DNA of 64,000 bases, taken from a phage. The translations under genes and the position numbers were made by a program. Positions 2 through 51,109 of this stretch are shown in pieces. The notes below the pieces were generated by a model. The model saw nothing but the letters and a program-made list of their open reading frames with translations, did no database searches and was not told where the DNA came from. Where the stretch lies: the NCBI GenBank assembly GCA_029945195.1, contig GCA_029945195.1_4117.1, one strand, 5' to 3'. Each line of letters opens with the position of its first letter. The first letter of the stretch is position 1.

Positions 2-2641
2 AAAAGAACAATTCAAGGAATAAATGAACAAGTTTTTGATTCCAACGGTAACTTGGAATTAGATACTTATTCCAGAGATGAAGTACTAGATATAGTAAGT
101 ATGATGCCAATCTCCCATTATGGTTCACAAAACTATCTACCTGCGGGTGTTTCTGGGGATTTCAATGGTGCATCAGAAAACCAGTCACAACGTAGAAATA
201 AAATTTTATTAGAAAACGATGGTACACTAGTACTTTTACGTAGTGGGACAAACGGTAGTGTTGAGGGATTATTTTATTCATATTTGGCTAACGCATTATC
301 AGTTGATGACATGAGCCGTACAATTAACACTAGTCGTCAATACAAGCCTGGGTTTTTTGGTTCAAATAGAGTTGCGATTGGTTTATACAATACTGATCCA
401 AATATTTTACTCGGTAGATATATTGATACTTCTAACAGTACTAATGGTTTGTTCATATCAATTACCAATGGTACATTAGATGATAAATTGCATACTGGTT
501 TTTTCGTTAACCAAGCAGATATATCACCTGAAGGTGGTATTGAATATGCTATGATGGCAGAAGATGGTTCTATATATGTTTTTAACGTACTTAATGAAAA
601 TAACCAACTACAATTAGTTGTTGTAAAAGTTGTTTATAATATAAGCAATGGTACTTATACTGCAACTCGAATTACTGGATGGACTACTAAAACATTTTAT
701 AACACGACATATTCTGCACAAAATAATATGGTTATTACTAATCAGGTAACATCAACAAATATTGCTGATAAACCTTATGTGTATGTTCCACAAAATCTAC
801 GTGGTATTGGGATTTACATGACATCAATTGATTTATATGTTGCACAGCAGCCAGGAACGCAGAATTTCCGCTTTAGAATGAACGGGGACGCTTGGTTTAC
901 AATGGCAACATATAATACACGTCCACAGCATAGTTACAGTTTTGTGTTCAATATGAGTACTAAACAATGTACATTAGATGCGGGTAACGATATTGGTTCA
1001 TATCAAGCACCATTAGTTATAACTAATACTGGTTCGGCATTAGTTCCTACTGGTAACGTTTTAAATAACGATCCATTGTATAACCATGCAAATGCAAGAA
1101 ACATTTATAGTTCATATTTTTATTTGAATTCTGGTGAAGCTTTTTGTACTACATGTCCAAACTTAGCAGAACCATTACTTATGCAAAAAGCTAAGTTTCC
1201 TATTCAAATAGTTTATAGTATGCTGAATGTCCGTGCTGTACTTTCTACTGACTTCAAAGGTGGTATAGTTCGCCCGTCTTTTGGTTCAGCGGTTGGTTCA
1301 TTTATTAATGGTGTAGAATTACTACCAGATAACAGTACTAAACAATATTCACGTGCATCAGGTAGTGGTGGATTTAGACCATCATATGCAGTTCATAAAA
1401 GTACTCCTAATTTTACATTTAAATCATTATCTTTAGGAACAATACAAGGTTATGAACCTACAGTTGAACGTGCTAATGTTGATGATAATGCAAATAATAG
1501 AATTTTTATTAGTAGTATTTCTGGGTCAACTGTCACAACCAATGGTGGTATTTTTATGGTTGGGCAACGTTATTCACAATCATTATCCTATGATAAAAAC
1601 TTAAATGGCACAGGAATTATAAGCGTTACACAATCAGTACTGGACAATTTTAGAAATACTGAATATGCCAAAGTTCTAAGTGATTGGAATTTATCAGCAC
1701 AAGCATACCGTGATATGACACTATTTGTTCCACAACAAACAGACATTCCAGCTTTTGTTATGTTGAGTACAATTACTAATGATTATAGAAACTATATTAG
1801 AATTGCTGAAGTTAATGTCAATACTAGAGTTGGTAATATTACATCTATTACATTTAAGCGTTTAGTACTTGAGAATACGTATGGTGATAACTTTACACCA
1901 ACTGGGAATGGTTCGATTGCATCTTCTTCTGTTGGTTTGACCATATATGATGGTGGTTCATTCTACTTCATTGGTGGTTCTGACCCATTATCACATCCAA
2001 CAATAGGTAATACTGCAACTCATCAATTTAGAGCATATGTAACTAAATCAACTGCACAATTTACAAGTTTTATAATTACTGGATCTCATGCCAGTTATGA
2101 ACAAGGAAGTCAACCAGCAGCATTACCTGGTATTGGTTTTGGAATTTTTGAACCAATGGATTACTCAAATAAAATGACATTCAAAAAATATGGAACAACG
2201 ATTGCAGACTATAATAACTGGACTGCACAAGGTAGCCCAATTAACGTAGTATCCCAGGACGTTGCTCAAGGGTTTATTGTATATTTTACAGAGGAAACAC
2301 CAGTTATTCTTTCAGGTAAGTCATTTTCACTACCAGTTTCAAATATTGATTTGAGAACTATTAAGTCTAATCCAGCAAATACAACATTTTATGTATATGT
2401 TAAATTGGAACAAGGATTGGCAAACTATTACATAACTACTGATGTTATTTCTGAAACAGGGACAACTGCATATAATATTTTTTGGATAGGTACAATTCAA
2501 ACTAATGCAATTCAAATCGAAACAATTAATATACAAAAACGTTCCCGTTTAGATATATTTGGTGCTTCACTTGAATCAGCAGGTTCATCGTTCCCAGTTA
2601 GCTACGGTCTACCATCACAAACAGGAACCATAAACTGGTAA
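2..2641 (+). CDS. Large hypothetical protein, family A paralog (5' partial; reading frame open from window start)
   Basis: Frame is open from nt 2 with no upstream stop; N-terminal region and C-terminus (SFPVSYGLPSQTGTINW) are shared with the 3257..5986 product. Confidence 0.7.
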   Translation, partial: KRTIQGINEQVFDSNGNLELDTYSRDEVLDIVSMMPISHYGSQNYLPAGVSGDFNGASENQSQRRNKILLENDGTLVLLRSGTNGSVEGLFYSYLANALSVDDMSRTINTSRQYKPGFFGSNRVAIGLYNTDPNILLGRYIDTSNSTNGLFISITNGTLDDKLHTGFFVNQADISPEGGIEYAMMAEDGSIYVFNVLNENNQLQLVVVKVVYNISNGTYTATRITGWTTKTFYNTTYSAQNNMVITNQVTSTNIADKPYVYVPQNLRGIGIYMTSIDLYVAQQPGTQNFRFRMNGDAWFTMATYNTRPQHSYSFVFNMSTKQCTLDAGNDIGSYQAPLVITNTGSALVPTGNVLNNDPLYNHANARNIYSSYFYLNSGEAFCTTCPNLAEPLLMQKAKFPIQIVYSMLNVRAVLSTDFKGGIVRPSFGSAVGSFINGVELLPDNSTKQYSRASGSGGFRPSYAVHKSTPNFTFKSLSLGTIQGYEPTVERANVDDNANNRIFISSISGSTVTTNGGIFMVGQRYSQSLSYDKNLNGTGIISVTQSVLDNFRNTEYAKVLSDWNLSAQAYRDMTLFVPQQTDIPAFVMLSTITNDYRNYIRIAEVNVNTRVGNITSITFKRLVLENTYGDNFTPTGNGSIASSSVGLTIYDGGSFYFIGGSDPLSHPTIGNTATHQFRAYVTKSTAQFTSFIITGSHASYEQGSQPAALPGIGFGIFEPMDYSNKMTFKKYGTTIADYNNWTAQGSPINVVSQDVAQGFIVYFTEETPVILSGKSFSLPVSNIDLRTIKSNPANTTFYVYVKLEQGLANYYITTDVISETGTTAYNIFWIGTIQTNAIQIETINIQKRSRLDIFGASLESAGSSFPVSYGLPSQTGTINW

Positions 2642-2652
2642 AGGATTACATA

Positions 2653-3240
2653 ATGGCATATAAAATAAGAGCAGACCTTAAGGCAATGCAACAAGTTACA
2701 GTTCAGGGTAAAAGTACTGGTCTTGGTGTATTAGGTAATAATATGACTTATTACCCAACAAATTCAAATGGGGAATGTACATTCCCCTCTATTACCAAAG
2801 ATGAAGTTAACTTTATTGTCAATGGATTACCACTTACACAATACGGAGAATTGTATGATGACGCTAGTCTAAATATTACTTCATCAGGCTATAGTCTTAC
2901 ATTTAATAGACAGATACCATCATTTATTGGTGGTTATCTTTATAAATTTCCAGCAGTTTCTATTTTTGCTTCAACTGTTTCATCTGGAACACAAACACAA
3001 TACGTATATGCAACGTTAGTTCTCGGTGAACCAATTTATAAAATATCACCAACACAAATACAAGAATCTGAAATTATAATGTTTATTGGAACACTGACCG
3101 TTGGTACAAGTGGTATTACAAATATAAACATTAATAAAGTATCCAGATTTAGTACATATAGACCTAGTGTTACACAAAAAGGTTCTTCATTCCCAGTCAG
3201 TACTGGAAAACCATCAGAAACTGGTACAATTGGTTGGTAA
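2653..3240 (+). CDS. Hypothetical protein, short family A paralog (shares C-terminal module)
   Basis: ATG start 12 nt after upstream stop; C-terminus RFSTYRPSVTQKGSSFPVSTGKPSETGTIGW matches the ends of both flanking large proteins. Confidence 0.6.
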   Translation: MAYKIRADLKAMQQVTVQGKSTGLGVLGNNMTYYPTNSNGECTFPSITKDEVNFIVNGLPLTQYGELYDDASLNITSSGYSLTFNRQIPSFIGGYLYKFPAVSIFASTVSSGTQTQYVYATLVLGEPIYKISPTQIQESEIIMFIGTLTVGTSGITNININKVSRFSTYRPSVTQKGSSFPVSTGKPSETGTIGW

Positions 3241-3256
3241 ATTAAGGAAAAGAAAG

Positions 3257-5986
3257 ATGTCATCAAAACGAATTATAGGAAGTGCCGAGATCCTTGGGAA
3301 CTTGGCAATTGGACAAAGGTACGCTATGCGTACTTTTAATGGAACCTCACCGAATGCCAATACTGGAATTGTTCAATATCCAATATATAAGCGTTCAGAA
3401 GTTCAAAGTATTTTAGATATGTTGCCTATATCACGTGTAGGAGAAATGGATTACTTACCATTAAACGTAAGTGGGTCGTATGAAGGTGCTACACCTATGT
3501 CAAGTGACCAAGTAGTTCAGCCAACAATTATTGAAGATGATGGAACCGCCGTTGTTCTGCGTAGCGGAACCAATGGTAGTACTAAAGGTTTTTATTATTC
3601 ATTTATACGAGAACTCCGAAATATAACTATGATTTCACAAGAAAGTGTTATTTCAACCAATTCAATGTATAAACCTTCAATTATGAGTAGTACTGAAAAT
3701 ATTAAGTATTTTATTGGCTCTAATGGTTATGAGATGCTTGGATGTTTAAGTACTGAAGATAATTATATTTTTACTATAACCAATGGCACATTTAACGAAA
3801 TATCACATATTCATGCTAAAGTGCCAAGTACTTCTTTTGGTAATGATATGCCAATATATACACATATTGTTGGGACAAAGGTTTATATTTGGTGTAAAGA
3901 TAAAAGTGTTTCTAATTTAGGATTAGCACTTTCAATTTATACAGTAGAGCTAAGTGATGTGAAAGCAAGCTCAATGGAATCATTAACAAAAGTTACTGGG
4001 TTATCAGGTCAAACTGTTCGAAACACAAGTTATTCTGCATCTAATAACATAAGAGTGTTCGATAAATTATATAGTGTTGGTACTAGCTCGGATTCATTAT
4101 TCGAAGTTACATCACCAGTATCACGTGTAGAATTTTCAGACTATACAGACTTTAACATTCAAGCCAACGTTAGTCCTGATTTATCAAAAATACGTGTAAC
4201 TTTATATCCAACACATCGAATGGTTACACCTTTGTATATTTCAACAGTTTATGGTACTGGAATAAGTTTTGTTTATAATATAAACTCAAAATCTATGTCA
4301 CTAGATGGTAGTGCTCGTGCACCTGCAACTGTTTCATATAATAATGGATTTCAAGTTTCTAACCCATTTGAAATTAATATGGTCAACTTCACAGGGACAA
4401 CTGCTGCTGGTGTATTAGGAAACGCAGGTGGTTTATGTCAAACTAAAGATGGTTTGGTATTTGCATCTAAATTTAGATGGAGTTCAACTGAATTTTATGG
4501 TCTACAACGATATAAGGTTAGTGGTACACCGTTTGATTCATGGGTTGCCAGTACTAGAACCGCAAGTAACGTTATAAATGCAAACGTTTTACCAGTTTTT
4601 GGTAGTGCTGTTGGTGCAAACCTTTTAGGTGTACGTTTCATCGATAATAGAAAAATATTATTAGCATGTTCTGGTACGTATGATGATGTAACATATAATT
4701 ATAATAATACTGTTTTTTCTGAAATAGGTTCACAACCAACATATCAATATAACTCAGTTCAAAATAATACTACATTAAATGGTTTTGCACCACAATCTAA
4801 TCGTAAACAAATAGGCGATGATTTTACATACACTGCTATGATTTCTCTTGTTGATACCGATGGTAGTGTTAGATGCTATGGAACATCATTCATTGAAGGT
4901 GTATATAAAACAAGTGGTGGATTATTAAACCCAGATACTTTAGAATTTGATGAAACATATACAATAGAACCAACGGTATTAGAATCATTAAAACAAGATA
5001 TTTTTGCTAATATAGGAAACTCTGGCATTGTTGGCACACTATCTGGACAAATTGTATTATATTATGTACCTGATAATACTTTTTCTAAATCCATCGCAGT
5101 AGTTTCAGCATATAATCTTAACAATAACCAAGGTTATGCAATCTATGCCGAAGTTGATGTTGTATTATCTGGAACTAACATAACTTCAGCTACATTGGTG
5201 AGTACTAGATATGAGACACTTAGTTCTGTTACAGGAATTATTACTGAAGCATATATGAAACGTTGTACTGGTCTAACAGTTGCAAAATATTCAGGATTTG
5301 GTTACATTGGTGTTGATGCTGTTCATCAATTTTCACAACCAGGTAATGCACAATTTAAGATGATGATAGCTAAAACAGTAGATGGTGTCATAACATCAAA
5401 TCGTTTTTTATCATCTAGTTACATCCAACTTGGTGCAGCATATCAACATGGTGTTATTCCTGGTGTTGGTTTTGGATATTACAATTTTCAAGATTCTGAC
5501 TATCAAACCAAATCTGTATTCAGCGTTTTTGGTACAACATCTGCTGAAATGGATGGTTTAATTAGTGGAAATGGTAGCGTTAAAGAAAAGATTGTGGTAG
5601 TATCACAAGACGTTGCACAAGGATTCTCAGTGTACTTTACACGTGAAGTTCCGGTGTTTTTAGGTGGAATTTTCGACAGACTACCTATACAAAGTGTTGA
5701 TTTAAGTACTGTAAAAAGTAACCCAGCTAATACTACGTTCTATTTGTATATACAAATGAACAGGAATACTAAGAAAGCGTCATATGTTATTAGTACTGAA
5801 ACAATTGATGAATCTTTAACTAGCACTTACATTGGTAAGATAGTTACTGGAACTTCAGGAATAACTTCAATTGATACAGAAAAAGTAACTCGTTTTTTGA
5901 CATATCGTCCAAGTACAACGAAACGTGGTTCAGCGATACCTGCCAGTACTGGTGTACCATCAGGTCCAGGTACACGTTGGAAATAA
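3257..5986 (+). CDS. Large hypothetical protein, family A paralog
   Basis: ATG at 3257 preceded by AAGGAAAAG; the track start at 3167 lies inside the upstream gene; conserved N-terminal (LPIS..YLP..VSG, VVLRSGTNGS) and C-terminal modules. Confidence 0.7.
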   Translation: MSSKRIIGSAEILGNLAIGQRYAMRTFNGTSPNANTGIVQYPIYKRSEVQSILDMLPISRVGEMDYLPLNVSGSYEGATPMSSDQVVQPTIIEDDGTAVVLRSGTNGSTKGFYYSFIRELRNITMISQESVISTNSMYKPSIMSSTENIKYFIGSNGYEMLGCLSTEDNYIFTITNGTFNEISHIHAKVPSTSFGNDMPIYTHIVGTKVYIWCKDKSVSNLGLALSIYTVELSDVKASSMESLTKVTGLSGQTVRNTSYSASNNIRVFDKLYSVGTSSDSLFEVTSPVSRVEFSDYTDFNIQANVSPDLSKIRVTLYPTHRMVTPLYISTVYGTGISFVYNINSKSMSLDGSARAPATVSYNNGFQVSNPFEINMVNFTGTTAAGVLGNAGGLCQTKDGLVFASKFRWSSTEFYGLQRYKVSGTPFDSWVASTRTASNVINANVLPVFGSAVGANLLGVRFIDNRKILLACSGTYDDVTYNYNNTVFSEIGSQPTYQYNSVQNNTTLNGFAPQSNRKQIGDDFTYTAMISLVDTDGSVRCYGTSFIEGVYKTSGGLLNPDTLEFDETYTIEPTVLESLKQDIFANIGNSGIVGTLSGQIVLYYVPDNTFSKSIAVVSAYNLNNNQGYAIYAEVDVVLSGTNITSATLVSTRYETLSSVTGIITEAYMKRCTGLTVAKYSGFGYIGVDAVHQFSQPGNAQFKMMIAKTVDGVITSNRFLSSSYIQLGAAYQHGVIPGVGFGYYNFQDSDYQTKSVFSVFGTTSAEMDGLISGNGSVKEKIVVVSQDVAQGFSVYFTREVPVFLGGIFDRLPIQSVDLSTVKSNPANTTFYLYIQMNRNTKKASYVISTETIDESLTSTYIGKIVTGTSGITSIDTEKVTRFLTYRPSTTKRGSAIPASTGVPSGPGTRWK

Positions 5987-6053: not shown

Positions 6054-6620
6054 ATGGTCAAAACTTTATTACCACCACCAAAACGTCACAAAATCAAAGA
6101 AATGAAAGAACAACGTACATTAAAGATGTACAACAATTTAGTTAAGTTACTGTGTAAAAGTCCATCGCTCAAAGCAGAGTTTAAAACTGATGATGACCGT
6201 AAAGCACTAATTGAGATGAAATATATGCTCAGTAAAATGTCCTTTTACAAATTTGTAAAAGAATACGCATCTGACCCATTTAGTCCTCGTTGGAGAGCCA
6301 AACCAAGAGAGTATTTTTACGGTGGTTCATATACAGATCGCATTCAAGACACAGTGATGGGAGTTGAATTTGAAATCGATTATGAGCCGAATGGTGAGGA
6401 AATCTTGCAGATTGAGAAACGTTTACCAAGTGAAGAAGAAATTTATGTTTATGCAAGAAAACTTTCAAATTACAGTTCAAGAATTACTCTAGGCAATTTA
6501 GATTCATTAATTATTTTCTATACACGTGTTGGTGTAGATAAGATGGTAACTAAACTCAATGAACTTTCATTACAACAAAAACAGATTAATGCATACAAAG
6601 ACATTACTGATTTATACTAA
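6054..6620 (+). CDS. Hypothetical protein, family B tandem paralog 1
   Basis: AGGAGG SD before ATG; shares KSPSLK...D.DR..L...KY.LSK motif with the next two genes. Confidence 0.65.
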   Translation: MVKTLLPPPKRHKIKEMKEQRTLKMYNNLVKLLCKSPSLKAEFKTDDDRKALIEMKYMLSKMSFYKFVKEYASDPFSPRWRAKPREYFYGGSYTDRIQDTVMGVEFEIDYEPNGEEILQIEKRLPSEEEIYVYARKLSNYSSRITLGNLDSLIIFYTRVGVDKMVTKLNELSLQQKQINAYKDITDLY

Positions 6621-6626
6621 TGAGGA

Positions 6627-7148
6627 ATGGATATGTTTTTTGGATCAGTTGGAAAACAAAACAGTACTTTAATTTGGCATGAAATTATCTTCAAAATTAT
6701 ATCTAAAAGCTACTCACTAAAGGATATTATCACCACAGATAATGATAGACGTATCCTGTTAGATGCAAAATATAAATTGAGCAAACACCCTTTACTTTCT
6801 TTAATCATTGATTACGTTAATGATTATGAATCTAGTCGTTGGAAGTGGGAAGACGGCGGTTTATTTCGTGGAAAAACATTCTACGGTGCGGAACGATATG
6901 TTTTCAGTGATGCATCAAATGGCGTTAAGTTTGTTATTAGAAACTTTAACTCCAAAGAAAATGATTATCTTGAAAGTGGAGTGAAAGTATATATCGATAA
7001 TAATAGCAATGTCCTAACATATGACGAATCACTAATTATGTTACAAATAATGCGTGGTGTTGAAGGTGTAAGAAACAACCTTACTAAATTGAAAATCCAG
7101 CAAAATGATATACATAATAGACAGAAAATTAAGGGTTTATATAAATGA
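6627..7148 (+). CDS. Hypothetical protein, family B tandem paralog 2
   Basis: Same N-terminal motif; start may instead be ATG 6633, which has better SD spacing. Confidence 0.6.
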   Translation: MDMFFGSVGKQNSTLIWHEIIFKIISKSYSLKDIITTDNDRRILLDAKYKLSKHPLLSLIIDYVNDYESSRWKWEDGGLFRGKTFYGAERYVFSDASNGVKFVIRNFNSKENDYLESGVKVYIDNNSNVLTYDESLIMLQIMRGVEGVRNNLTKLKIQQNDIHNRQKIKGLYK

Positions 7149-7654
7149 TTTCATTTTTCAAAAAGAAACAAAAAGTTGATGAAACAGGATTAGAATCGTT
7201 TCTATGGACTCTTATCATCAAAAAAAGTCCATTGATAAAAGAATATGCTATCAATGATGCTAATAGAAAAACTATCATTGAATACAAATACGAATTATCA
7301 AAATGTGATCCAATCGTTTATCACTTTGCGAAGTACTGTTCAAAAAATTTATCGGATATCACAATAGACCATGAGTCAGTTCCAATGAGCTTTCCTTATG
7401 GTGATTGGGTAGATACTTTTGATATTTTTGATGGGTCCAATGGATTCAGTTTCTTTTACTCGTCAAATAAAGCAAATGTTCGTATTAAAACAGAGATAGG
7501 TTGGGCACAGCATAGCTCAAATAAAGAAGATTATAATTTACTAGCTGACGTATACCGAAGTGTGAAGAATTCAAAGGATATTGATGAAAGAATTAAAAAG
7601 CAAAATCGTATTTCTTTATCACTTGAAACATACAAGTCAAAGTATGGTGGTTAA
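7145..7654 (+). CDS. Hypothetical protein, family B tandem paralog 3
   Basis: Start overlaps upstream stop (ATGA); same motif. Confidence 0.6.
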   Translation: MISFFKKKQKVDETGLESFLWTLIIKKSPLIKEYAINDANRKTIIEYKYELSKCDPIVYHFAKYCSKNLSDITIDHESVPMSFPYGDWVDTFDIFDGSNGFSFFYSSNKANVRIKTEIGWAQHSSNKEDYNLLADVYRSVKNSKDIDERIKKQNRISLSLETYKSKYGG

Positions 7655-7656
7655 CG

Positions 7657-8058
7657 ATGACTACAGTTGATGATATCTACAGCACTATACGCAATATGAG
7701 TACAGATAGAAAAGTATTTGGTGATAAAGAAAAATCTAAGTGTTATGGTATTGATTCTTTTGATATAATTTCTTATGAGTACAACACGAGTGGAAATAGT
7801 TCACTGAATATCGTCTGCCCTCGTGACCCAGAAAATAATTTTATGTATGTTGAAATTAATAATGATGGAATATTTTTTACAAAAGTTTTTAAAGGTGGAA
7901 TTAATTACGAACCAATTGAATGTATGAATGAAGAAACTTTCTTTCAAGAAGATACAATTATCAATTTAGGTTTTAGTTTTGATGATTATAAAACATTAGA
8001 ACATGACTTTAATCGTTATTATAACGGTTTCTTAAAGGAGTTAACAATTTATCTATGA
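7657..8058 (+). CDS. Hypothetical protein
   Basis: ORF tightly packed between neighbours; start overlaps upstream end. Confidence 0.5.
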   Translation: MTTVDDIYSTIRNMSTDRKVFGDKEKSKCYGIDSFDIISYEYNTSGNSSLNIVCPRDPENNFMYVEINNDGIFFTKVFKGGINYEPIECMNEETFFQEDTIINLGFSFDDYKTLEHDFNRYYNGFLKELTIYL

Positions 8059-10325
8059 ATAACCAATATGTTGAACAAACAATAGTGAAACACTTGGCTG
8101 GGTCACAAGCCTACGGAACCAGTACACCTGAAAGTGATACTGATTATCGTGGTATTTTTCTTGCTAATAAAGAATTTATTCTTACGCCATTCTATAAGGT
8201 CAAAGAAGTAGCTGATAAAAATGAAGAAGATACTAAATTCTATGAGTTAAATCAGTATTTAAAATTATACACTGAAGCCAACCCTAATATATTGGAATCA
8301 CTATGGGTCGAACCAGAACACATTGTAGAAAGTACTGAGATTTATGACTATCTTCGTTCATTTAACCAAAAACTTCTTAGTTCCAAGATTGCATTTTCAT
8401 ACACTGGATATGCATATAATCAGATTAAGCGTATGACAAATCATCACGGTTGGATGGATAAAGAGCGTATTGCTGAAAAACGATTAAATGAGATTTTAGA
8501 AGAACACCCTGTCGATGAGGTTCTTGCGTGGATGTATGATTCATTCCCACAGTATCTTGTTGAACGTTTAGATACATCCAACTTACATCCATTTAATGCT
8601 AAAAAGATTGATTTTGAAAAATATATGCGTGATACGTCATTGCAGTTAGTTTCGAAAAATCCATTAAAGCAATATCATTTTGTAAGATTAGTGCATAACT
8701 ACACTACTGAAAAAATTCTTGATCGTGATTTCAATTTATTGAATTTTAATAATGGTTATGAACTAATTCATTACGGAGAAAACATTTTTGCGATTATTAA
8801 AAATCCGAATGAAAGCACTATCAACGGTGATGGATCATTGCGTTATTTTTCTAAAGAGCGTAGTACTGAAGAGTTGAAAACTAAACCAGAACTAATTGTC
8901 AAATTTAACGAAAAAGAATATCAGGAAAATAGTGAGAATAGGAAAAGTTATCATAAATGGAAAGAAAATCGTAATGCCAAACGTGCTATTTTAGAATCAC
9001 AACACGGATACGACTGTTATAGTTTTGATACTGAATTCTTAACTAAAGATGGTTGGAAATTATTTGACGACATCACTGATAAAGATCTATTAGCGACTTT
9101 TGATAAAAATCACAAAATAGAGTATCAAAAATACACAGAACGTTTTGATAATTTATACAATGGAAATCTTTACCATTTCACTGGTCATCACCAAGATACG
9201 TTAGTGACTGCAAATCACAGAATGTATGTTAAGAATTATGCACGTAATCAGCAAAAAGATATGTCAGAATGGCAATTTGTTGAAGCAGCACAATTAAAAG
9301 AAACTTATAAAATTTTGAATACATTATCTCCAATAACAAAGGAATATAAAGATAAAAAAAGCCCAATTGACTATATGGATATCAAAGTTTATCTTCAACT
9401 GATGGGATGGTTTCTTTCAGATGGTAGTATAAGTTTTAGAGATGGAAAAGTAAAATCATTATACATTTCACAATCAAAAGCCAGTCCTGGTATGCGTTGT
9501 GCTTTATCAAAATACAAACAATCTGGACAAATGATATTTCAGGAATACATTAACGAAAGAAAAGATTACCAATCAAATGATGAATCAAGATTTGTATTTC
9601 CACGTGAAGTGGCTGAAGCATTATATAATGATTGTGGGCATGGATCATATAATAAAAGAATTCCAAATTGGGCATTTGATTTAACAAAACGAAAAATGGA
9701 TTTTCTGCTAAAAGGTTTGTTGCAAGGTGATGGTACAAAACGTAATTTGGTCAATCATGATGACACATATGTATATTATACTGCTAATTCATTATTAGCT
9801 GATGATGTTCAAAAACTAGCATTACTGTGCGGTTATGAAACATCGAAATGGGGACCATACACAAACGAAACTAATTTTGGTTATATTGAAATGTATCAAG
9901 TTCATATCAATATGAAACCTAAATCAGAAAAAATAAACATGAAACAAAATCTTGAAAAAATTCCAGTAACTAACTACAGAACTGTTTGTTTTTCAGTTCC
10001 GAACGGTACACTGGTTACTCGTAGAAATGGTAAAACTGCATTACATGGAAACTGTAAACATGCTATGCACACAATCCGACTTTTGAATAGTGCAGAAGAA
10101 GCATTACAAAGTGGAATTATTCAAGTTAAACGACCAGATGCACAAATGTTGATGGATATTCGTAATGGTAAATGGAAGTATGAAGAAGTCTTAGAATATT
10201 TCGATGATAAAGTACAATACATTCGTGATGTTCTATATAAGAAATCAGTACTTCCTAAAAAACCAAACATCAAGTTAGCATCAAAAATTATCATTGATAT
10301 TAGAGAAATGCAATGGTATAAGTAA
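8055..10325 (+). CDS. Pol-beta-superfamily nucleotidyltransferase (RNA-repair-type) interrupted by an intein
   Basis: N-terminal GSQAYGTSTPESDTDYRGIF matches the GS...SD.D nucleotidyltransferase motif; an internal ~346-aa insert carries intein and LAGLIDADG blocks. Confidence 0.7.
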   Translation: MNNQYVEQTIVKHLAGSQAYGTSTPESDTDYRGIFLANKEFILTPFYKVKEVADKNEEDTKFYELNQYLKLYTEANPNILESLWVEPEHIVESTEIYDYLRSFNQKLLSSKIAFSYTGYAYNQIKRMTNHHGWMDKERIAEKRLNEILEEHPVDEVLAWMYDSFPQYLVERLDTSNLHPFNAKKIDFEKYMRDTSLQLVSKNPLKQYHFVRLVHNYTTEKILDRDFNLLNFNNGYELIHYGENIFAIIKNPNESTINGDGSLRYFSKERSTEELKTKPELIVKFNEKEYQENSENRKSYHKWKENRNAKRAILESQHGYDCYSFDTEFLTKDGWKLFDDITDKDLLATFDKNHKIEYQKYTERFDNLYNGNLYHFTGHHQDTLVTANHRMYVKNYARNQQKDMSEWQFVEAAQLKETYKILNTLSPITKEYKDKKSPIDYMDIKVYLQLMGWFLSDGSISFRDGKVKSLYISQSKASPGMRCALSKYKQSGQMIFQEYINERKDYQSNDESRFVFPREVAEALYNDCGHGSYNKRIPNWAFDLTKRKMDFLLKGLLQGDGTKRNLVNHDDTYVYYTANSLLADDVQKLALLCGYETSKWGPYTNETNFGYIEMYQVHINMKPKSEKINMKQNLEKIPVTNYRTVCFSVPNGTLVTRRNGKTALHGNCKHAMHTIRLLNSAEEALQSGIIQVKRPDAQMLMDIRNGKWKYEEVLEYFDDKVQYIRDVLYKKSVLPKKPNIKLASKIIIDIREMQWYK
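9015..10052 (+). mobile_element. Intein with LAGLIDADG homing-endonuclease domain (boundaries approximate)
   Basis: Begins at Cys (CYSFDTEFLTKDGW, block A); TANH (block B); two LAGLIDADG-like motifs LMGWFLSDGSI and LLKGLLQGDGT; C-terminal ...VCFSVPNGTLV...ALHGN followed by Cys +1. Confidence 0.65.
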
Positions 10326-14743: not shown

Positions 14744-15048
14744 AAAAATTATTAGTTCCAATGATTTCTTTTTTAATTATAAGTGGGTGTGCCGAGCAAG
14801 TAAAACTACAATCCCCCGCACCAATTAAACAAGAAATTCTGTTAGAAAGATGTGATGATGATACACCTCTACCACAAAAAATTATGATTGACAAAAATGG
14901 TTTTAAAGGTTATGATGGTGCAGAAATTCTTAAAGTACTTACTCGTTGGGATGCAGTCTACAATGAATGTGCTTTAAAACACGACGCATTGATTAAAACT
15001 ATTCGTGATTTACAAGGTAAAGATATTAAAATCAATATCAAGGAATAA
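14740..15048 (+). CDS. Outer-membrane lipoprotein spanin (Rz1-like)
   Basis: Signal peptide with lipobox MKKLLVPMISFLIISGC; small size; start overlaps the upstream gene end. Confidence 0.55.
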   Translation: MKKLLVPMISFLIISGCAEQVKLQSPAPIKQEILLERCDDDTPLPQKIMIDKNGFKGYDGAEILKVLTRWDAVYNECALKHDALIKTIRDLQGKDIKINIKE

Positions 15049-15049
15049 A

Positions 15050-15661
15050 ATGAACAAATATCATGTTTACTATACGACAAAATTATCACTTCTTGACGAA
15101 TTAAATCAACGAAGTACTAAGATGAAACGCTACACTTTAAATGGTATTACTTTTCGATATTTCCCACAAAAAGTTCTTACTTTTGTTAAGAATCCAAAAT
15201 GCGTGGCATGTGGGATTGAAGCTACTGAAGTACGCATTGAACGTTCATTATGTTCTGATCCAGTATATGGTAAACCACATTTAAATGTATATGCTGTATG
15301 TGGTCTTTATGAAGTTTTAATGACAGTTGACCATAATCATCTGGCATCTAAGGGTGGACCTGATTTAGAGTCAAACTTTAATACTATGTGCTCCAGATGT
15401 AATCAACTACGTTCGAATAAAACTGAAACAGTTGATGAGTTTCTTGAGAAAGTTAAAGGTCGTAATCTTCTCCAAGAACATATGAATAATTTCTTTAATG
15501 TACAAAAAAAGAAAAATAACATTGACAAGTCGAAACTACTAGAAGAACGTAGGTTACGTCAAGAATTATGGGAAACCGATCATCTATGGCATGTTCGAGA
15601 GTTTGGTCGTCATATGAAAGCTTTGAAAAAAGAACAGAAGAAATTGAATAAACATGATTGA
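15050..15661 (+). CDS. HNH homing endonuclease
   Basis: CxxC zinc-finger pair and HNH core (VDHNHLASKGG...N...CSRCNQL); ATG at 15050 preceded by AAGGA; the track start at 15005 overlaps the upstream gene. Confidence 0.7.
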   Translation: MNKYHVYYTTKLSLLDELNQRSTKMKRYTLNGITFRYFPQKVLTFVKNPKCVACGIEATEVRIERSLCSDPVYGKPHLNVYAVCGLYEVLMTVDHNHLASKGGPDLESNFNTMCSRCNQLRSNKTETVDEFLEKVKGRNLLQEHMNNFFNVQKKKNNIDKSKLLEERRLRQELWETDHLWHVREFGRHMKALKKEQKKLNKHD

Positions 15662-49146: not shown

Positions 49147-51109
49147 ATCTAATTGTTACCAATGTTCTTCCGTCGAAACGTACATCAGGAGTTGAAGGTA
49201 TACTAAACACTACGTTAGTGCCGTTAAACGTAACGCTATCGACCTCAACACGAGTATAGACACCAGGACTAACCTGTTCCTGTATCTCTGCTGTGACGAT
49301 GTTTGAGGCTGTTACAGTAAGGGTGTAGTAGTTACCACTTAATACCCAAGATGAAATTGTAAAAGCATCGGTTCTCACTGAACCTGAACCAATTGGAACC
49401 CATTGACCTTGAACTTTTTGCATTGAAGTACGCTCGGTATTGGAGTATGCAATCATACCATCAACGCCAACAGAGTTATCAATAGTAGCTAGTACTGGTA
49501 ATTGGATACCATATCTATTAAAACGTGTTCTTATAGTTCCATTATCATAGATACTTACATCAGCATAATTACCCATTGATAGTTTTAAATCAGAACTAAC
49601 TAATTGGATTGTACTTTGATTAGTAGTACTTTCTAATGTAATTATACCATTAGCTAATAGATTTATATTTTTAAATTTATTAGTTGTTCCATTGAAATTA
49701 GTGTTTGCTGTAAACGTACTAACTCCATTAACTGTAATTGTATCAGATGCAGCATCGCCTAATGTAGTATTACCTTGAATGTTCAAATTACCACTAGCAG
49801 TGATATTACTAGCTGATGTATCACCAGTCAATGTACTTGTACCATCAACCACAATATTACCATGAAACGCACTTTCACCATTTTTAAATTCAACTTGTAC
49901 TTTATTCATTGAACTAAATGAAATAATATTACTACTAGCACTTAGTCCAACATTAGTATTGGTTGCATTATCAAATCTTAGTACTGGGGTTGATGCTGGG
50001 GTTGAAGTTGTTTGGTATAATGTTAATGTTGAATTATTAATTCTAATACGTTCAGTTCCAGCAGTACTGAAACCAATTGCATCATCTGCTGGATGAAACA
50101 TACCAGTATTAGCGTCTGACCATTTTGCAGGATCATTACCTGGGTTATTGGTTGGATCAAATGGATTGTTATTAAATGTCAATGCTGGTGCTGCTGCACT
50201 ACCATAGACCACACCAAAACGCCCTGAGCCGCTTGTTCCATCATTATACATGGAATCACCAGTTCTACGTAAACACTCAATCACAACGTTATCTATGGAT
50301 GTTTGAACGGTCCCTGCGTTTGTCCTAAATTGACGATGATTTGCAATCATTACAGTATTGTCATATAATACTGAAGCAGCGGAAATGCTTGTTCTTGACT
50401 GGCGTAGACGTATGTTTTTATCTTCAGTTATAATAATCCAATCACCATCTGATAGTGCGGTTTGGTTCATTGGAACACCTGAAGCAAATGGTTTGGTTAA
50501 GTCAGCATCTGTTGCTAAATTTTTAAGACCATCATGACCAGTACTAGGAATAGATGCAGGAATAATTCTAGCGAAAGCGTATGTTACTAGTTTAGCACCA
50601 GATATATTTGGATTAGAGTCAACATAATATAAAATTTCAATCCAATTACCTTGTCCAGTTGGATTTGTAGGTGTAAATGTAACAGGACTTGTTTGTGGAT
50701 TATTTGCTTCATAATGGGCTTGTGCGGCATCCATAATACCACGAACAACATAATAATCACCATTTAGTGATGCTGCTGGTGCTGGTAGTGGTGTTTGTGC
50801 TAAAGGTGGATCAATATCATCTGGGATAGGATTGTATGTACCAACAAACTGTAAACCACTAGTTACTGAATCTGGTAATTGGGAAGTAAGAAGTTTACCA
50901 TTTGCATCTAAGTTTGCAAAGCGGCGATATGCCATAGTACCATCTTCAAAATCCAGAACACCTTCAAATGATTTCCATTCCTTATTGTATCTAATCATCC
51001 CTGATCTTATTACATCAGCGGTTTCTTTTGATGGTGCTTTCGGTAACTCTAAAAAAGATTTACTATCAATAATTACACCACCATCACCTCTAATTCGATT
51101 TATACTCAT
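49145..51109 (-). CDS. Tail fibre / structural protein (654 aa)
   Basis: GAGGAA SD before ATG; S/T/N/G-rich beta-type composition. Confidence 0.6.
   Translation of the reverse strand: MSINRIRGDGGVIIDSKSFLELPKAPSKETADVIRSGMIRYNKEWKSFEGVLDFEDGTMAYRRFANLDANGKLLTSQLPDSVTSGLQFVGTYNPIPDDIDPPLAQTPLPAPAASLNGDYYVVRGIMDAAQAHYEANNPQTSPVTFTPTNPTGQGNWIEILYYVDSNPNISGAKLVTYAFARIIPASIPSTGHDGLKNLATDADLTKPFASGVPMNQTALSDGDWIIITEDKNIRLRQSRTSISAASVLYDNTVMIANHRQFRTNAGTVQTSIDNVVIECLRRTGDSMYNDGTSGSGRFGVVYGSAAAPALTFNNNPFDPTNNPGNDPAKWSDANTGMFHPADDAIGFSTAGTERIRINNSTLTLYQTTSTPASTPVLRFDNATNTNVGLSASSNIISFSSMNKVQVEFKNGESAFHGNIVVDGTSTLTGDTSASNITASGNLNIQGNTTLGDAASDTITVNGVSTFTANTNFNGTTNKFKNINLLANGIITLESTTNQSTIQLVSSDLKLSMGNYADVSIYDNGTIRTRFNRYGIQLPVLATIDNSVGVDGMIAYSNTERTSMQKVQGQWVPIGSGSVRTDAFTISSWVLSGNYYTLTVTASNIVTAEIQEQVSPGVYTRVEVDSVTFNGTNVVFSIPSTPDVRFDGRTLVTIR

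What the first reader, a model, noticed from the sequence alone, without database searches (positions are those of the whole stretch)
8055..10325. LAGLIDADG intein inside a pol-beta-type (RNA-repair family) nucleotidyltransferase
The N-terminal ~320 aa carry the GS...SD.D nucleotidyltransferase signature. An insert then starts at a Cys codon (9015) with intein block A (CYSFDTEFLTKDGW) and block B (TANH), contains two LAGLIDADG-like motifs, and ends with ...ALHGN followed by Cys+1 (10053). The penultimate residue is Gly rather than the usual His, so the C-terminal splice junction is atypical. Inteins usually sit in replication or packaging enzymes; one in a nucleotidyltransferase would be unusual.
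Basis: partly seen in the sequence, partly recalled or inferred. Interest (0 to 1): 0.7.

Follow-up and report, generated by a model that had tools for sequence, protein, structure and literature searches.

The report
Mobile intein in phage nucleotidyltransferase gene
A 346-residue self-splicing, self-mobilising protein insert (an intein with a LAGLIDADG homing endonuclease) interrupts the RNA-repair-type nucleotidyltransferase gene of this E. coli jumbo phage; the call is correct, but the same intein family at the same site is already known from mycobacteriophages, so it is a new member rather than a new kind.

Summary
ORF 8055-10325 (+) encodes a 756-aa precursor. Twenty-four related Asteriusvirus phages (121Q/PBECO4 group) carry the same gene, up to 99.7% identical, without bases 9015-10052. 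That is exactly 1038 bp, or 346 codons, in frame. The insert has Cys1, TxxH, two LAGLIDADG motifs with their catalytic Asp, a terminal Asn and Cys+1. Its predicted structure (pLDDT 93) matches PI-SceI and VMA-type inteins. It splits an invariant motif of the RlaP (PF10127) nucleotidyltransferase, G-Y-D|C-K-H-A-M-H-x-x-R.

Only phage TH47 carries the same intein. Intein DNA is 88% identical between the two phages, against 72-79% for the flanks, and intein dN/dS is 0.09. This points to horizontal homing and a selected splicing and endonuclease function.

The intein is 34% identical (E 3e-48) to the published "NT" intein of cluster C1 mycobacteriophages (Alice gp3), at the same site and with the same H-G-N ending. 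More than 100 metagenomic RlaP clusters also carry it. Penultimate Gly is a family trait (103 of 107) and is known to be compatible with splicing in another phage intein.

Verdict: a real class 1 intein, a new member of a known kind, of modest interest.

The parts
8055..10325 (+). Precursor ORF (756 aa, 89.5 kDa, including the stop codon): RlaP-family nucleotidyltransferase interrupted by an intein.
   Evidence: phrog_388 'nucleotidyltransferase' scores E 1.3e-77 in two stretches.
8055..9014 (+). N-extein (320 aa). It contains the Pol-beta nucleotidyltransferase core and ends ...ESQHGYD.
   Evidence: PF10127 covers residues 12-131. It is 99.7% identical to the intein-free alleles. The last codon is GAC here and in TH47, but GAT in all 8 intein-free alleles examined (7 aligned plus A4).
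8100..8144 (+). Nucleotidyltransferase catalytic signature GSQAYGTSTPESDTD (G16-S17...D28-x-D30).
   Evidence: G16, S17, S27, D28 and D30 are invariant in alignment A1.
9015..10052 (+). Intein (346 aa, 40.6 kDa), running from Cys1 to Asn346. It is absent from 24 related phages.
   Evidence: Searches show the exact 1038-bp in-frame indel. The AF2 model has pLDDT 93.1 and pTM 0.91. Foldseek matches the TliVMA, PI-SceI and PI-PkoII inteins at E 7e-14 to 1e-9.
9015..9359 (+). N-terminal splicing (HINT) lobe, with block A (CYSFDTEFLTKDGW, 9015-9056) and block B (GHHQDTLVTANHRMYV, 9183-9230; T65, H68).
   Evidence: Conservation: C1 in 19 of 19 sequences that cover it, T/S at B:7 in 20 of 20, and H at B:10 in 20 of 20. 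phmmer matches the AceL NrdHF intein 6zgq.
9360..9914 (+). LAGLIDADG homing endonuclease domain. Motif 1 lies at 9390-9428 (catalytic D136) and motif 2 at 9702-9737 (catalytic D239).
   Evidence: PF14528 scores 24.6 bits against a cutoff of 22.5. The family profile matches PI-PkoII at E 3e-6. The fold matches I-DmoI and I-SceI. The acidic residues are kept in 20 of 20 and 19 of 20 homologues. dN/dS against TH47 is 0.13.
9915..10052 (+). C-terminal splicing lobe, with block F (RTVCFSVPNGTLVTRRNG, 9978-10031; invariant C325) and block G (KTALHGN, 10032-10052; G345 penultimate, N346 terminal).
10053..10325 (+). C-extein (90 aa plus stop). It starts with the Cys+1 nucleophile and the invariant motif C-K-H-A-M-H-T-I-R-L-L.
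   Evidence: K322, H326 and R329 (spliced numbering) are invariant in A1. The +1 residue is C, S or T in 104 of 107 intein-bearing homologues.

Best explanation
**What it is**
Bases 9015-10052 encode a class 1 intein with an embedded, monomeric two-motif LAGLIDADG homing endonuclease. It is inserted in the RlaP-family (PF10127, Pol-beta superfamily) nucleotidyltransferase gene of an Asteriusvirus jumbo coliphage.

**How splicing most likely proceeds (steps 1-4 inferred from conserved residues and the established class 1 pathway)**
1. The gene is translated as an 89.5-kDa precursor.
2. Cys1 performs an N-S acyl shift at the Asp320-Cys1 bond, aided by block B Thr65 and His68.
3. Cys+1 (window 10053) attacks the thioester to give the branched intermediate.
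4. Asn346 cyclises and releases the 40.6-kDa intein. An S-N shift then restores the peptide bond.
5. The product is the 48.9-kDa enzyme, with the invariant G-Y-D-C-K-H-A-M-H-x-x-R motif rejoined (shown by comparison with intein-free alleles).

**How it moves (inferred)**
The excised intein is a site-specific DNA endonuclease. In mixed infections it cuts intein-free alleles around ...GGATACGAT|TGTAAACATGC.... Repair from the intein-bearing copy then copies the intein in. This is homing, here with a very short co-conversion tract.

**Population picture**
The element is a selfish passenger showing presence/absence polymorphism within Asteriusvirus. It belongs to an old allelic intein family specific to this site of RlaP enzymes in phages, archaea and bacteria.
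For: **Shown by sequence comparison**
- An exact 1038-bp in-frame insertion is found relative to 24 relatives. It is the only gap in 25 kb of 99.2-99.6% identity.
- The catalytic set is conserved in homologues: C1, T/S-x-x-H, terminal N, +1 C/S/T, and both LAGLIDADG acidic residues.
- The high-confidence model has the HINT plus LAGLIDADG architecture of solved inteins.
- The insertion falls inside an invariant host motif, at the N-cap of helix 321-340.

**Evidence for mobility and selection**
- The window and TH47 inteins are 88.4% identical in DNA, against 78.8% and 71.6% for the exteins. dS is 0.56 against more than 2.
- dN/dS is 0.09 over the whole intein and 0.13 over the endonuclease part.
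- TH47's spliced host protein is 99.5% identical to the intein-free protein P0052. The polymorphism therefore exists in two sublineages.
- The -1 codon is GAC in both intein-bearing alleles and GAT in all 8 intein-free alleles examined.

**Family membership**
- Alice gp3 is 34% identical (E 3e-48), with the same site GWD|C...MHGN|T.

**From the literature**
- Penultimate Gly is compatible with efficient splicing in a phage class 1 intein (PMC5050341).
Against: - No experiment exists: neither splicing nor DNA cleavage has been shown for this protein. In the papers read here, none was shown for any member of the NT/RlaP intein family either. Kelley et al. tested the TerL and RDF inteins, not NT.
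- The canonical penultimate His is missing and block F contains no His that could replace it. His344 (G:5) is Gln in about a third of homologues.
- The donor of the window's intein is unsampled. The nearest copy is only 88% identical, and none was found in IMG/VR or in complete E. coli genomes.
- Gain by homing rather than loss in relatives is inferred, not proven.
Confidence: 0.9

Rival explanations
1. The insert is a decayed, splicing-incompetent intein remnant, because penultimate Gly replaces His. The nucleotidyltransferase of this phage would then be inactivated or made only as a fusion protein.
For: - The C-terminal junction lacks the usual His.
- The NT intein family has not been assayed in the papers read.
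- The gene may be dispensable. This is an assumption: RlaP function is itself only predicted (PMC7824862).
Against: - Gly or Ser at this position is conserved in 104 of 107 family members spread over phages, archaea and bacteria. All of them keep C1, TxxH, the terminal N and a +1 nucleophile. A dead element would not keep these.
- dN/dS is 0.03/0.6 (about 0.05) in both splicing lobes between the window and TH47.
- There are no frameshifts or stop codons.
- A phage intein with penultimate Gly splices better than its His mutant (PMC5050341).
Confidence: 0.04
2. The intein splices by a class 3-like or dual-nucleophile route. The invariant block F Cys325, rather than or in addition to Cys1, would attack the N-terminal junction. 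Alternatively, Cys325 forms a regulatory disulfide with Cys1 or Cys+1.
For: - Cys325 is invariant in 20 of 20 homologues.
- It lies 21 residues before the terminal Asn. That is the same spacing as the class 3 nucleophile Cys118 to Asn139 in Msm DnaBi1 (PMC6195587).
- The closest solved sequence relative of the N-lobe is a class 3 intein, AceL NrdHF 6zgq.
Against: - Class 3 inteins are defined by the lack of a position-1 nucleophile and by the W-C-T triplet (PMC5050341).
- Here Cys1 is kept in every complete homologue, B:12 is an invariant Met rather than Trp, and G:5 is His or Gln rather than Thr.
- No model coordinates were available to measure Cys-Cys distances.
Confidence: 0.06
3. The intein is ancestral in Asteriusvirus and has been lost precisely from most lineages. 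It would not be a recent gain by homing in the window's lineage, and the endonuclease may no longer be active.
For: - The same site is occupied in two divergent sublineages, the window and TH47.
- The true donor is unsampled.
- The homing-cycle model predicts loss phases (general knowledge).
Against: - Intein divergence (dS 0.56) is much lower than flank divergence (dS above 2) between the two carriers. The intein therefore did not co-diverge with its host gene.
- The window's exteins differ from the intein-free alleles at only 4 of 1233 sites. Loss would have needed repeated, base-perfect deletions in many close relatives.
- The endonuclease part is under purifying selection and keeps both catalytic Asp.
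Confidence: 0.08

Closest known systems
Mycobacteriophage cluster C1 (Bixzunavirus) 'NT' nucleotidyltransferase intein, e.g. Alice gp3 (Kelley et al. 2016, PMC5050341; 10.1101/2025.01.02.630785)
   Same: - The host family is the same (PF10127 / IPR018775).
- The insertion point is the same: G-[YW]-D | C ... H-G-N | [CT]-K-x-x-x-H-x-x-R-L.
- Both are full-length LAGLIDADG inteins of about 335-346 aa.
- They are 34% identical over 100% of the length, E 3e-48.
- Both have penultimate Gly and the block F V-C-F motif.
   Different: - The host is an E. coli jumbo myovirus (Asteriusvirus), not an actinobacteriophage.
- The host protein has a ~180-residue extra insert (410 aa against ~290 aa of extein).
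- The +1 residue is Cys instead of Thr.
- Sequence identity is only about a third, so this is a distant allelic relative.
PI-SceI / TliVMA / PhoVMA / PI-PkoII (solved LAGLIDADG-containing class 1 inteins)
   Same: - The two-domain architecture is shared: a HINT splicing domain split by a two-motif LAGLIDADG endonuclease.
- Foldseek gives E 7e-14 to 1e-9 with TM about 0.6.
- The family profile matches the PI-PkoII endonuclease core.
   Different: - Sequence identity is about 10-12%.
- The host proteins differ (V-ATPase, DNA polymerase).
- Those inteins have the canonical penultimate His.
- This intein is more compact and has no extra DNA-recognition region of the PI-SceI type.
Mycobacteriophage Bethlehem gp51 RDF intein (class 1, penultimate Gly; PMC5050341)
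   Same: It is a phage class 1 intein with Gly instead of the penultimate His. It was shown experimentally to splice efficiently, and G316H slows splicing.
   Different: - The host protein is different (a metallophosphoesterase/RDF), as is the insertion site.
- Homology to the window intein was not tested here.
Class 3 inteins (e.g. Msm DnaBi1, MP-Be DnaB, AceL NrdHF)
   Same: - A Cys occupies the block F:4-equivalent position, 21 residues before the terminal Asn.
- They are associated with phages.
- The N-lobe is the best sequence match in the PDB.
   Different: - This intein keeps Cys1.
- It lacks Trp at B:12 (Met here) and Thr at G:5 (His or Gln here), so it is not a class 3 intein by the defining criteria.

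Membership tests
Intein (class 1) | An in-frame insertion that is absent from orthologous alleles, with host sequence contiguous across the site. | tested here: met
   The exact 1038-bp (346-codon) indel is seen against 24 phages. The flanks are 99.7% identical.
Intein (class 1) | A nucleophile (Cys, Ser or Thr) at intein position 1. | tested here: met
   Cys1 is encoded by TGT at 9015. It is conserved in 19 of 19 homologues that cover the position.
Intein (class 1) | The block B T-x-x-H motif. | tested here: met
   T65-A-N-H68 is present. T/S is kept in 20 of 20 and H in 20 of 20 homologues.
Intein (class 1) | A C-terminal Asn followed by a Cys, Ser or Thr +1 extein nucleophile. | tested here: met
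   N346 | C+1 is present. N is kept in 20 of 20 homologues, and +1 is C41/S35/T28 among 107.
Intein (class 1) | A penultimate His (block G:6). This is typical of the class but not obligatory. | tested here: not met
   The residue is Gly345, and Gly occurs in 103 of 107 family members. It is a known tolerated variant (PMC5050341).
Intein (class 1) | The HINT fold. | tested here: met
   The AF2 model has pLDDT 93. Foldseek finds inteins, the Hedgehog autoprocessing domain and BIL domains.
Intein (class 1) | Autocatalytic protein splicing that yields ligated exteins. | not testable with these tools
   This needs expression followed by western blot or mass spectrometry.
LAGLIDADG homing endonuclease | Two LAGLIDADG helices, each ending in a catalytic acidic residue, in an alpha-beta-beta-alpha-beta-beta-alpha core. 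| tested here: met
   The motifs lie at intein residues 126-138 (D136) and 230-241 (D239). PF14528 scores 24.6 bits against a cutoff of 22.5. The fold matches I-DmoI and I-SceI, and the family profile matches PI-PkoII.
LAGLIDADG homing endonuclease | Site-specific cleavage of the intein-free allele. | not testable with these tools
   Only indirect support is available: dN/dS of 0.13 in this domain and an intein that is less diverged than its flanks.
RlaP / PF10127 Pol-beta-superfamily nucleotidyltransferase (host protein) | A Pfam match above the gathering score, and the G-S...D-x-D catalytic signature. | tested here: met
   The match scores 56.5 bits against 23. G16, S17, D28 and D30 are invariant. 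The fold shows only weak hits to the Pol-beta nucleotidyltransferases KNTase, HalB and MNT.
RlaP / PF10127 Pol-beta-superfamily nucleotidyltransferase (host protein) | Genomic or functional association with an RNA ligase (RNA-repair role; PMC7824862). | not tested
   The neighbours within about 7 kb are tail genes, paralogous small ORFs and an HNH endonuclease. The rest of the genome was not surveyed for ligases.
Allelic 'NT' intein family of mycobacteriophages | Homologous intein sequence at the homologous insertion site of the homologous host protein. | tested here: met
   Alice gp3 gives 34% identity over 100% coverage at E 3e-48. Its junctions are GWD|CYLGDTEFLT and AMHGN|TKTGYHALRL.
Class 3 intein | No position-1 nucleophile, and the W(B:12)-C(F:4)-T(G:5) triplet. 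| tested here: not met
   Cys1 is present, B:12 is Met (20 of 20), and G:5 is His or Gln. Only the F:4-equivalent Cys is present.

The most novel reading that the evidence does not exclude
The RlaP-site intein family may be a mechanistic intermediate between class 1 and class 3 inteins, or a conditional (redox-gated) splicing switch.

- It combines Cys1 with an invariant Cys at the class 3 block F:4 position and an almost invariant penultimate Gly.
- If Cys325 can act as an alternative branch nucleophile, or can form a disulfide with Cys1 or Cys+1, then production of the phage's RNA-repair nucleotidyltransferase would be tuned post-translationally during infection.
- The E. coli phage copy would give a tractable system to test this.
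Probability: 0.1. Interest if true: 0.55.

Novelty: new member of a known kind. Interest (0 to 1): 0.3.

Why it matters
**Practical value**
- The finding corrects the annotation. The 756-aa ORF is a 410-aa enzyme plus a mobile element. The only other carrier, TH47, is an unannotated record.

**Biological value**
- It extends a known actinobacteriophage intein family to E. coli jumbo phages.
- It shows that this family is widespread at one invariant site of RlaP enzymes. More than 100 protein clusters carry it, including Promethearchaeota, Nanoarchaeota and Glassbacteria bins and jumbo-phage contigs.
- Near-identical intein-plus and intein-minus Asteriusvirus genomes exist on a standard E. coli host. 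That makes this a convenient natural system in which to measure:
  - intein homing;
  - co-conversion tract length;
  - splicing without a penultimate His.

**Limit**
- It does not reveal a new kind of element.

Tried and rejected
**Searches that found nothing**
- Close copies of the intein in IMG/VR viral contigs: none.
- Megablast of bases 8800-10300 against 5,426 complete E. coli genomes: no match.
- phmmer of the block F/G peptide against PDB sequences: nothing, as the query is too short.
- A literature search for an Asteriusvirus or RlaP intein description: only unrelated mentions.

**Things that could not be done**
- Tori & Perler 2011 could not be read. Statements about the origin of class 3 inteins are therefore not cited from it.
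- Model coordinates are not exposed. The Cys1-Cys325 distance, and the position of the insertion site relative to the active site, could not be measured.

**Leads that proved empty or inconclusive**
- A second intein elsewhere in the window: tblastn gave one weak hit at 49856-49924 (-). It is a chance 'FHGN' in a tail-fibre-like protein.
- A fold search of the intein-free enzyme against the PDB gave only marginal Pol-beta nucleotidyltransferase hits (E about 0.03). No solved close relative of RlaP was found.

**Readings considered and rejected**
- A group I intron with a LAGLIDADG ORF: rejected, because the reading frame is continuous and the HINT lobes are present.
- A free-standing homing endonuclease gene: rejected, because there is no start or stop codon of its own.
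Full report
**1. The observation**

The window encodes a 756-codon ORF at 8055-10325 on the + strand. The whole protein hits Pfam RlaP (PF10127, 'RNA repair pathway DNA polymerase beta family') at residues 12-131 with 56.5 bits against a cutoff of 23. It also hits LAGLIDADG_3 (PF14528) at residues 551-610 with 24.6 bits against 22.5.

PHROGs places the protein in phrog_388 'nucleotidyltransferase' (E 1.3e-77), matched in two separate stretches. It gives secondary hits to families that are known only through their intein-bearing members, ThyX and PhoH. NCBIfam gives weak hits to intein-containing GyrA and DnaB models.

**2. Natural intein-free alleles fix the junctions**

Megablast against 50,697 phage records shows that the window comes from an Asteriusvirus, the 121Q/PBECO4 group of ~350-kb E. 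coli/Salmonella jumbo phages. Twenty-four records match the gene in two pieces that together cover 54% of the query, at 95.5-99.7% identity. In those phages the gene is 1233 bp, not 2271 bp.

Direct comparison with ELP-22 and 121Q gives the following.
- The window has an extra 1038 bp, which is 346 codons, at 9015-10052.
- The host sequence reads ...ESQHGYD|CKHAMHTIRLL... in the intein-free alleles.
- It reads ...ESQHGYD|CYSFDTEF...TALHGN|CKHAMHTIRLL... in the window.
- The spliced window gene differs from ELP-22 at only 4 of 1233 positions.

Over the first 25 kb of the window, the closest phages (SP27, UB, JP4, ELP-22, E9.1) are 99.2-99.6% identical with 96% coverage. The missing 4% is the intein.

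**3. The insert is a complete intein**

Twenty homologues were aligned (A2). The conserved positions are:

| Position | Residue in window | Conservation |
|---|---|---|
| Intein position 1 | Cys1 | 19 of 19 that cover it |
| Block B:7 | Thr65 | T/S in 20 of 20 |
| Block B:10 | His68 | 20 of 20 |
| Terminal residue | Asn346 | 20 of 20 |
| LAGLIDADG motif 1 acid | D136 | D/E in 20 of 20 |
| LAGLIDADG motif 2 acid | D239 | D in 19 of 20 |

The AlphaFold2 model built from this alignment is confident (pLDDT 93.1, pTM 0.91). It shows beta-rich N- and C-terminal lobes around an alpha/beta core. Foldseek against the PDB returns LAGLIDADG-containing inteins first: TliVMA, PI-SceI, PI-PkoII and PhoVMA, at E 7e-14 to 1e-9. 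Free LAGLIDADG enzymes (I-DmoI, I-SceI) follow, then mini-inteins and the Hedgehog autoprocessing domain. A profile of the family matches the PI-PkoII endonuclease core and the N-lobe of the AceL NrdHF intein.

**4. The insertion site**

In 30 intein-free homologues (A1), the residues around the site are the most conserved part of the C-terminal half. G318, D320, K322, H326 and R329 are invariant. The +1 position is mostly Thr or Cys, and occasionally Ser, Leu, Ala or Gly.

In the model of the intein-free protein (pLDDT 90.3), the site is the short loop before helix 321-340. No close solved structure exists. Only marginal hits to Pol-beta nucleotidyltransferases were found (kanamycin nucleotidyltransferase, HalB, MNT; E about 0.03). 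Insertion into an invariant motif is the usual intein pattern, as Kelley et al. describe for phage inteins including NT (PMC5050341).

**5. Evidence for mobility and selection**

Only one other phage record, the unannotated TH47 (MT446416), has the intein. It sits at the same site and has the same ALHGN|C ending.

| Window versus TH47 | N-extein | Intein | C-extein |
|---|---|---|---|
| DNA identity | 78.8% | 88.4% | 71.6% |
| dS | 2.1 | 0.56 | saturated |

- dN/dS is 0.09 for the whole intein, 0.13 for the endonuclease part and about 0.05 for each splicing lobe.
- The intein is therefore younger than the divergence of its two hosts, which means it moved horizontally. Both of its activities are under purifying selection.
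- TH47's spliced protein is 99.5% identical to an intein-free protein, P0052 of phage vB_Ec-M-J. Presence/absence polymorphism thus exists in two Asteriusvirus sublineages.
- Next to the junction, the only window-specific change is the synonymous third base of the -1 codon. It is GAC in both intein-bearing alleles and GAT in all eight intein-free alleles checked. This is consistent with a very short co-conversion tract, or with a change that affects recognition. That reading is inference.
- The actual donor is unsampled. No close copy exists in IMG/VR or in complete E. coli genomes.

**6. Comparison with what is known**

The intein alone finds 46 proteins in the 5.8-billion-protein set. Most of the best ones are RlaP proteins of 500-600 aa from metagenomes, including Promethearchaeota, Nanoarchaeota and Glassbacteria bins and a 352-kb contig. 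All have the junctions G-[YF]-D|C...[HQ]-[GS]-N|[CST]-K-H-A-M-H.

The exhaustive search of 1.84 billion representatives gives 240 clusters at E<=1e-30. Of the 189 top homologues, 109 also match the window's C-extein. Among the 107 with a recognisable C-junction (three of which are spurious internal regex matches):
- the penultimate residue is Gly in 103;
- the +1 residue is C, S or T in 104.

tblastn against phage genomes finds 94 Mycobacterium phage records. In Alice, gene 3 'nucleotidyltransferase' carries the homologous intein at the same site...AKHGWD|CYLGDTEFLT...VAMHGN|TKTGYHALRL..., with 34% identity over full length and E 3e-48.

This is the 'NT' intein listed by Kelley et al. 2016, with 23 copies in cluster C1. 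It was analysed again in a 2025 preprint, which names the host family IPR018775 and reports intein/extein incongruence for it.

Kelley et al. also report that the penultimate His is often replaced by Gly, Lys or Ser in phage class 1 inteins. They show that the Bethlehem RDF intein with Gly splices completely, whereas its G316H mutant accumulates precursor. They did not assay the NT intein itself.

Jumbo-phage RlaP enzymes are predicted, not shown, to restore nucleotides at damaged RNA ends before ligation (PMC7824862). I found no paper describing an intein in an Asteriusvirus or naming an 'RlaP intein'.

**7. An unexplained detail**

Cys325 in block F (V-C-F) is invariant. It lies 21 residues before the terminal Asn. 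That is the spacing of the class 3 nucleophile Cys118 to Asn139 in Msm DnaBi1.

The family nevertheless keeps Cys1. It has Met rather than Trp at B:12, and His or Gln rather than Thr at G:5. It therefore fails the class 3 definition and is best called class 1. Whether Cys325 is structural, redox-active or an alternative nucleophile cannot be decided here, because no model coordinates are available.

**8. Verdict**

The element is a bona fide class 1 LAGLIDADG intein, very probably active in splicing and homing. It is a new, distant member, and the first in an E. coli jumbo phage as far as the searched records and papers show, of an already described intein family specific to one site of RlaP nucleotidyltransferases.

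Interest is modest (0.3). The main value lies in correct annotation and in a tractable natural intein-plus/intein-minus phage pair for homing and splicing experiments.

Noticed in passing
window 9987-9989 (intein Cys325, block F): A Cys is invariant in all 20 aligned homologues. It sits at the spacing of the class 3 block F:4 nucleophile, 21 residues before the terminal Asn. This is an intein family that also keeps Cys1 and lacks the Trp and Thr of the W-C-T triplet.
   Followed up: partly
window 9012-9014 (-1 codon, Asp320): The codon is GAC in both intein-bearing alleles (window and TH47) but GAT in all eight intein-free Asteriusvirus alleles examined. It may be a 1-nt co-conversion footprint or a change that affects endonuclease recognition.
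   Followed up: partly
window 6054-7654 (+): Three tandem paralogous small ORFs of 188, 173 and 169 aa (phrog_18641 / phrog_7868, unknown function) lie directly upstream of the nucleotidyltransferase. The first two are 30% identical to each other. A fourth unrelated small ORF follows at 7657-8058 and overlaps the nucleotidyltransferase start by 4 nt.
   Followed up: partly
window 53-2641 and 3167-5986 (+): Two tandem paralogous large ORFs of 862 and 939 aa both match phrog_3573 (unknown function) at E about 1e-267.
   Followed up: no
window 15005-15661 (+): A free-standing HNH homing-endonuclease-like gene (phrog_23285, E 6e-131) lies about 5 kb downstream, among tail genes. It is a second selfish element in the region. 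Relatives also annotate an HNH endonuclease within the matching 25-kb region.
   Followed up: no
alignment A1, column of the +1 residue (spliced position 321): Some intein-free RlaP homologues have Leu, Ala or Gly instead of Thr, Cys or Ser at the +1 position (P0049, P0122, P0152). These alleles could not support splicing if invaded, so they may be 'immune' to productive intein insertion.
   Followed up: no
P0004 (599 aa, on a 351,809-bp metagenomic contig) and P0167 (763 aa): Other jumbo-phage-sized contigs carry a 48-53% identical intein at the same RlaP site. The called P0004 protein lacks the N-terminal nucleotidyltransferase core, which suggests a miscalled start or a split gene.
   Followed up: no
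L002 (TH47, MT446416) 1492-3768: The only other Asteriusvirus record with this intein is flagged UNVERIFIED and carries no annotation, so the intein-bearing gene is not annotated in that public phage record.
   Followed up: yes
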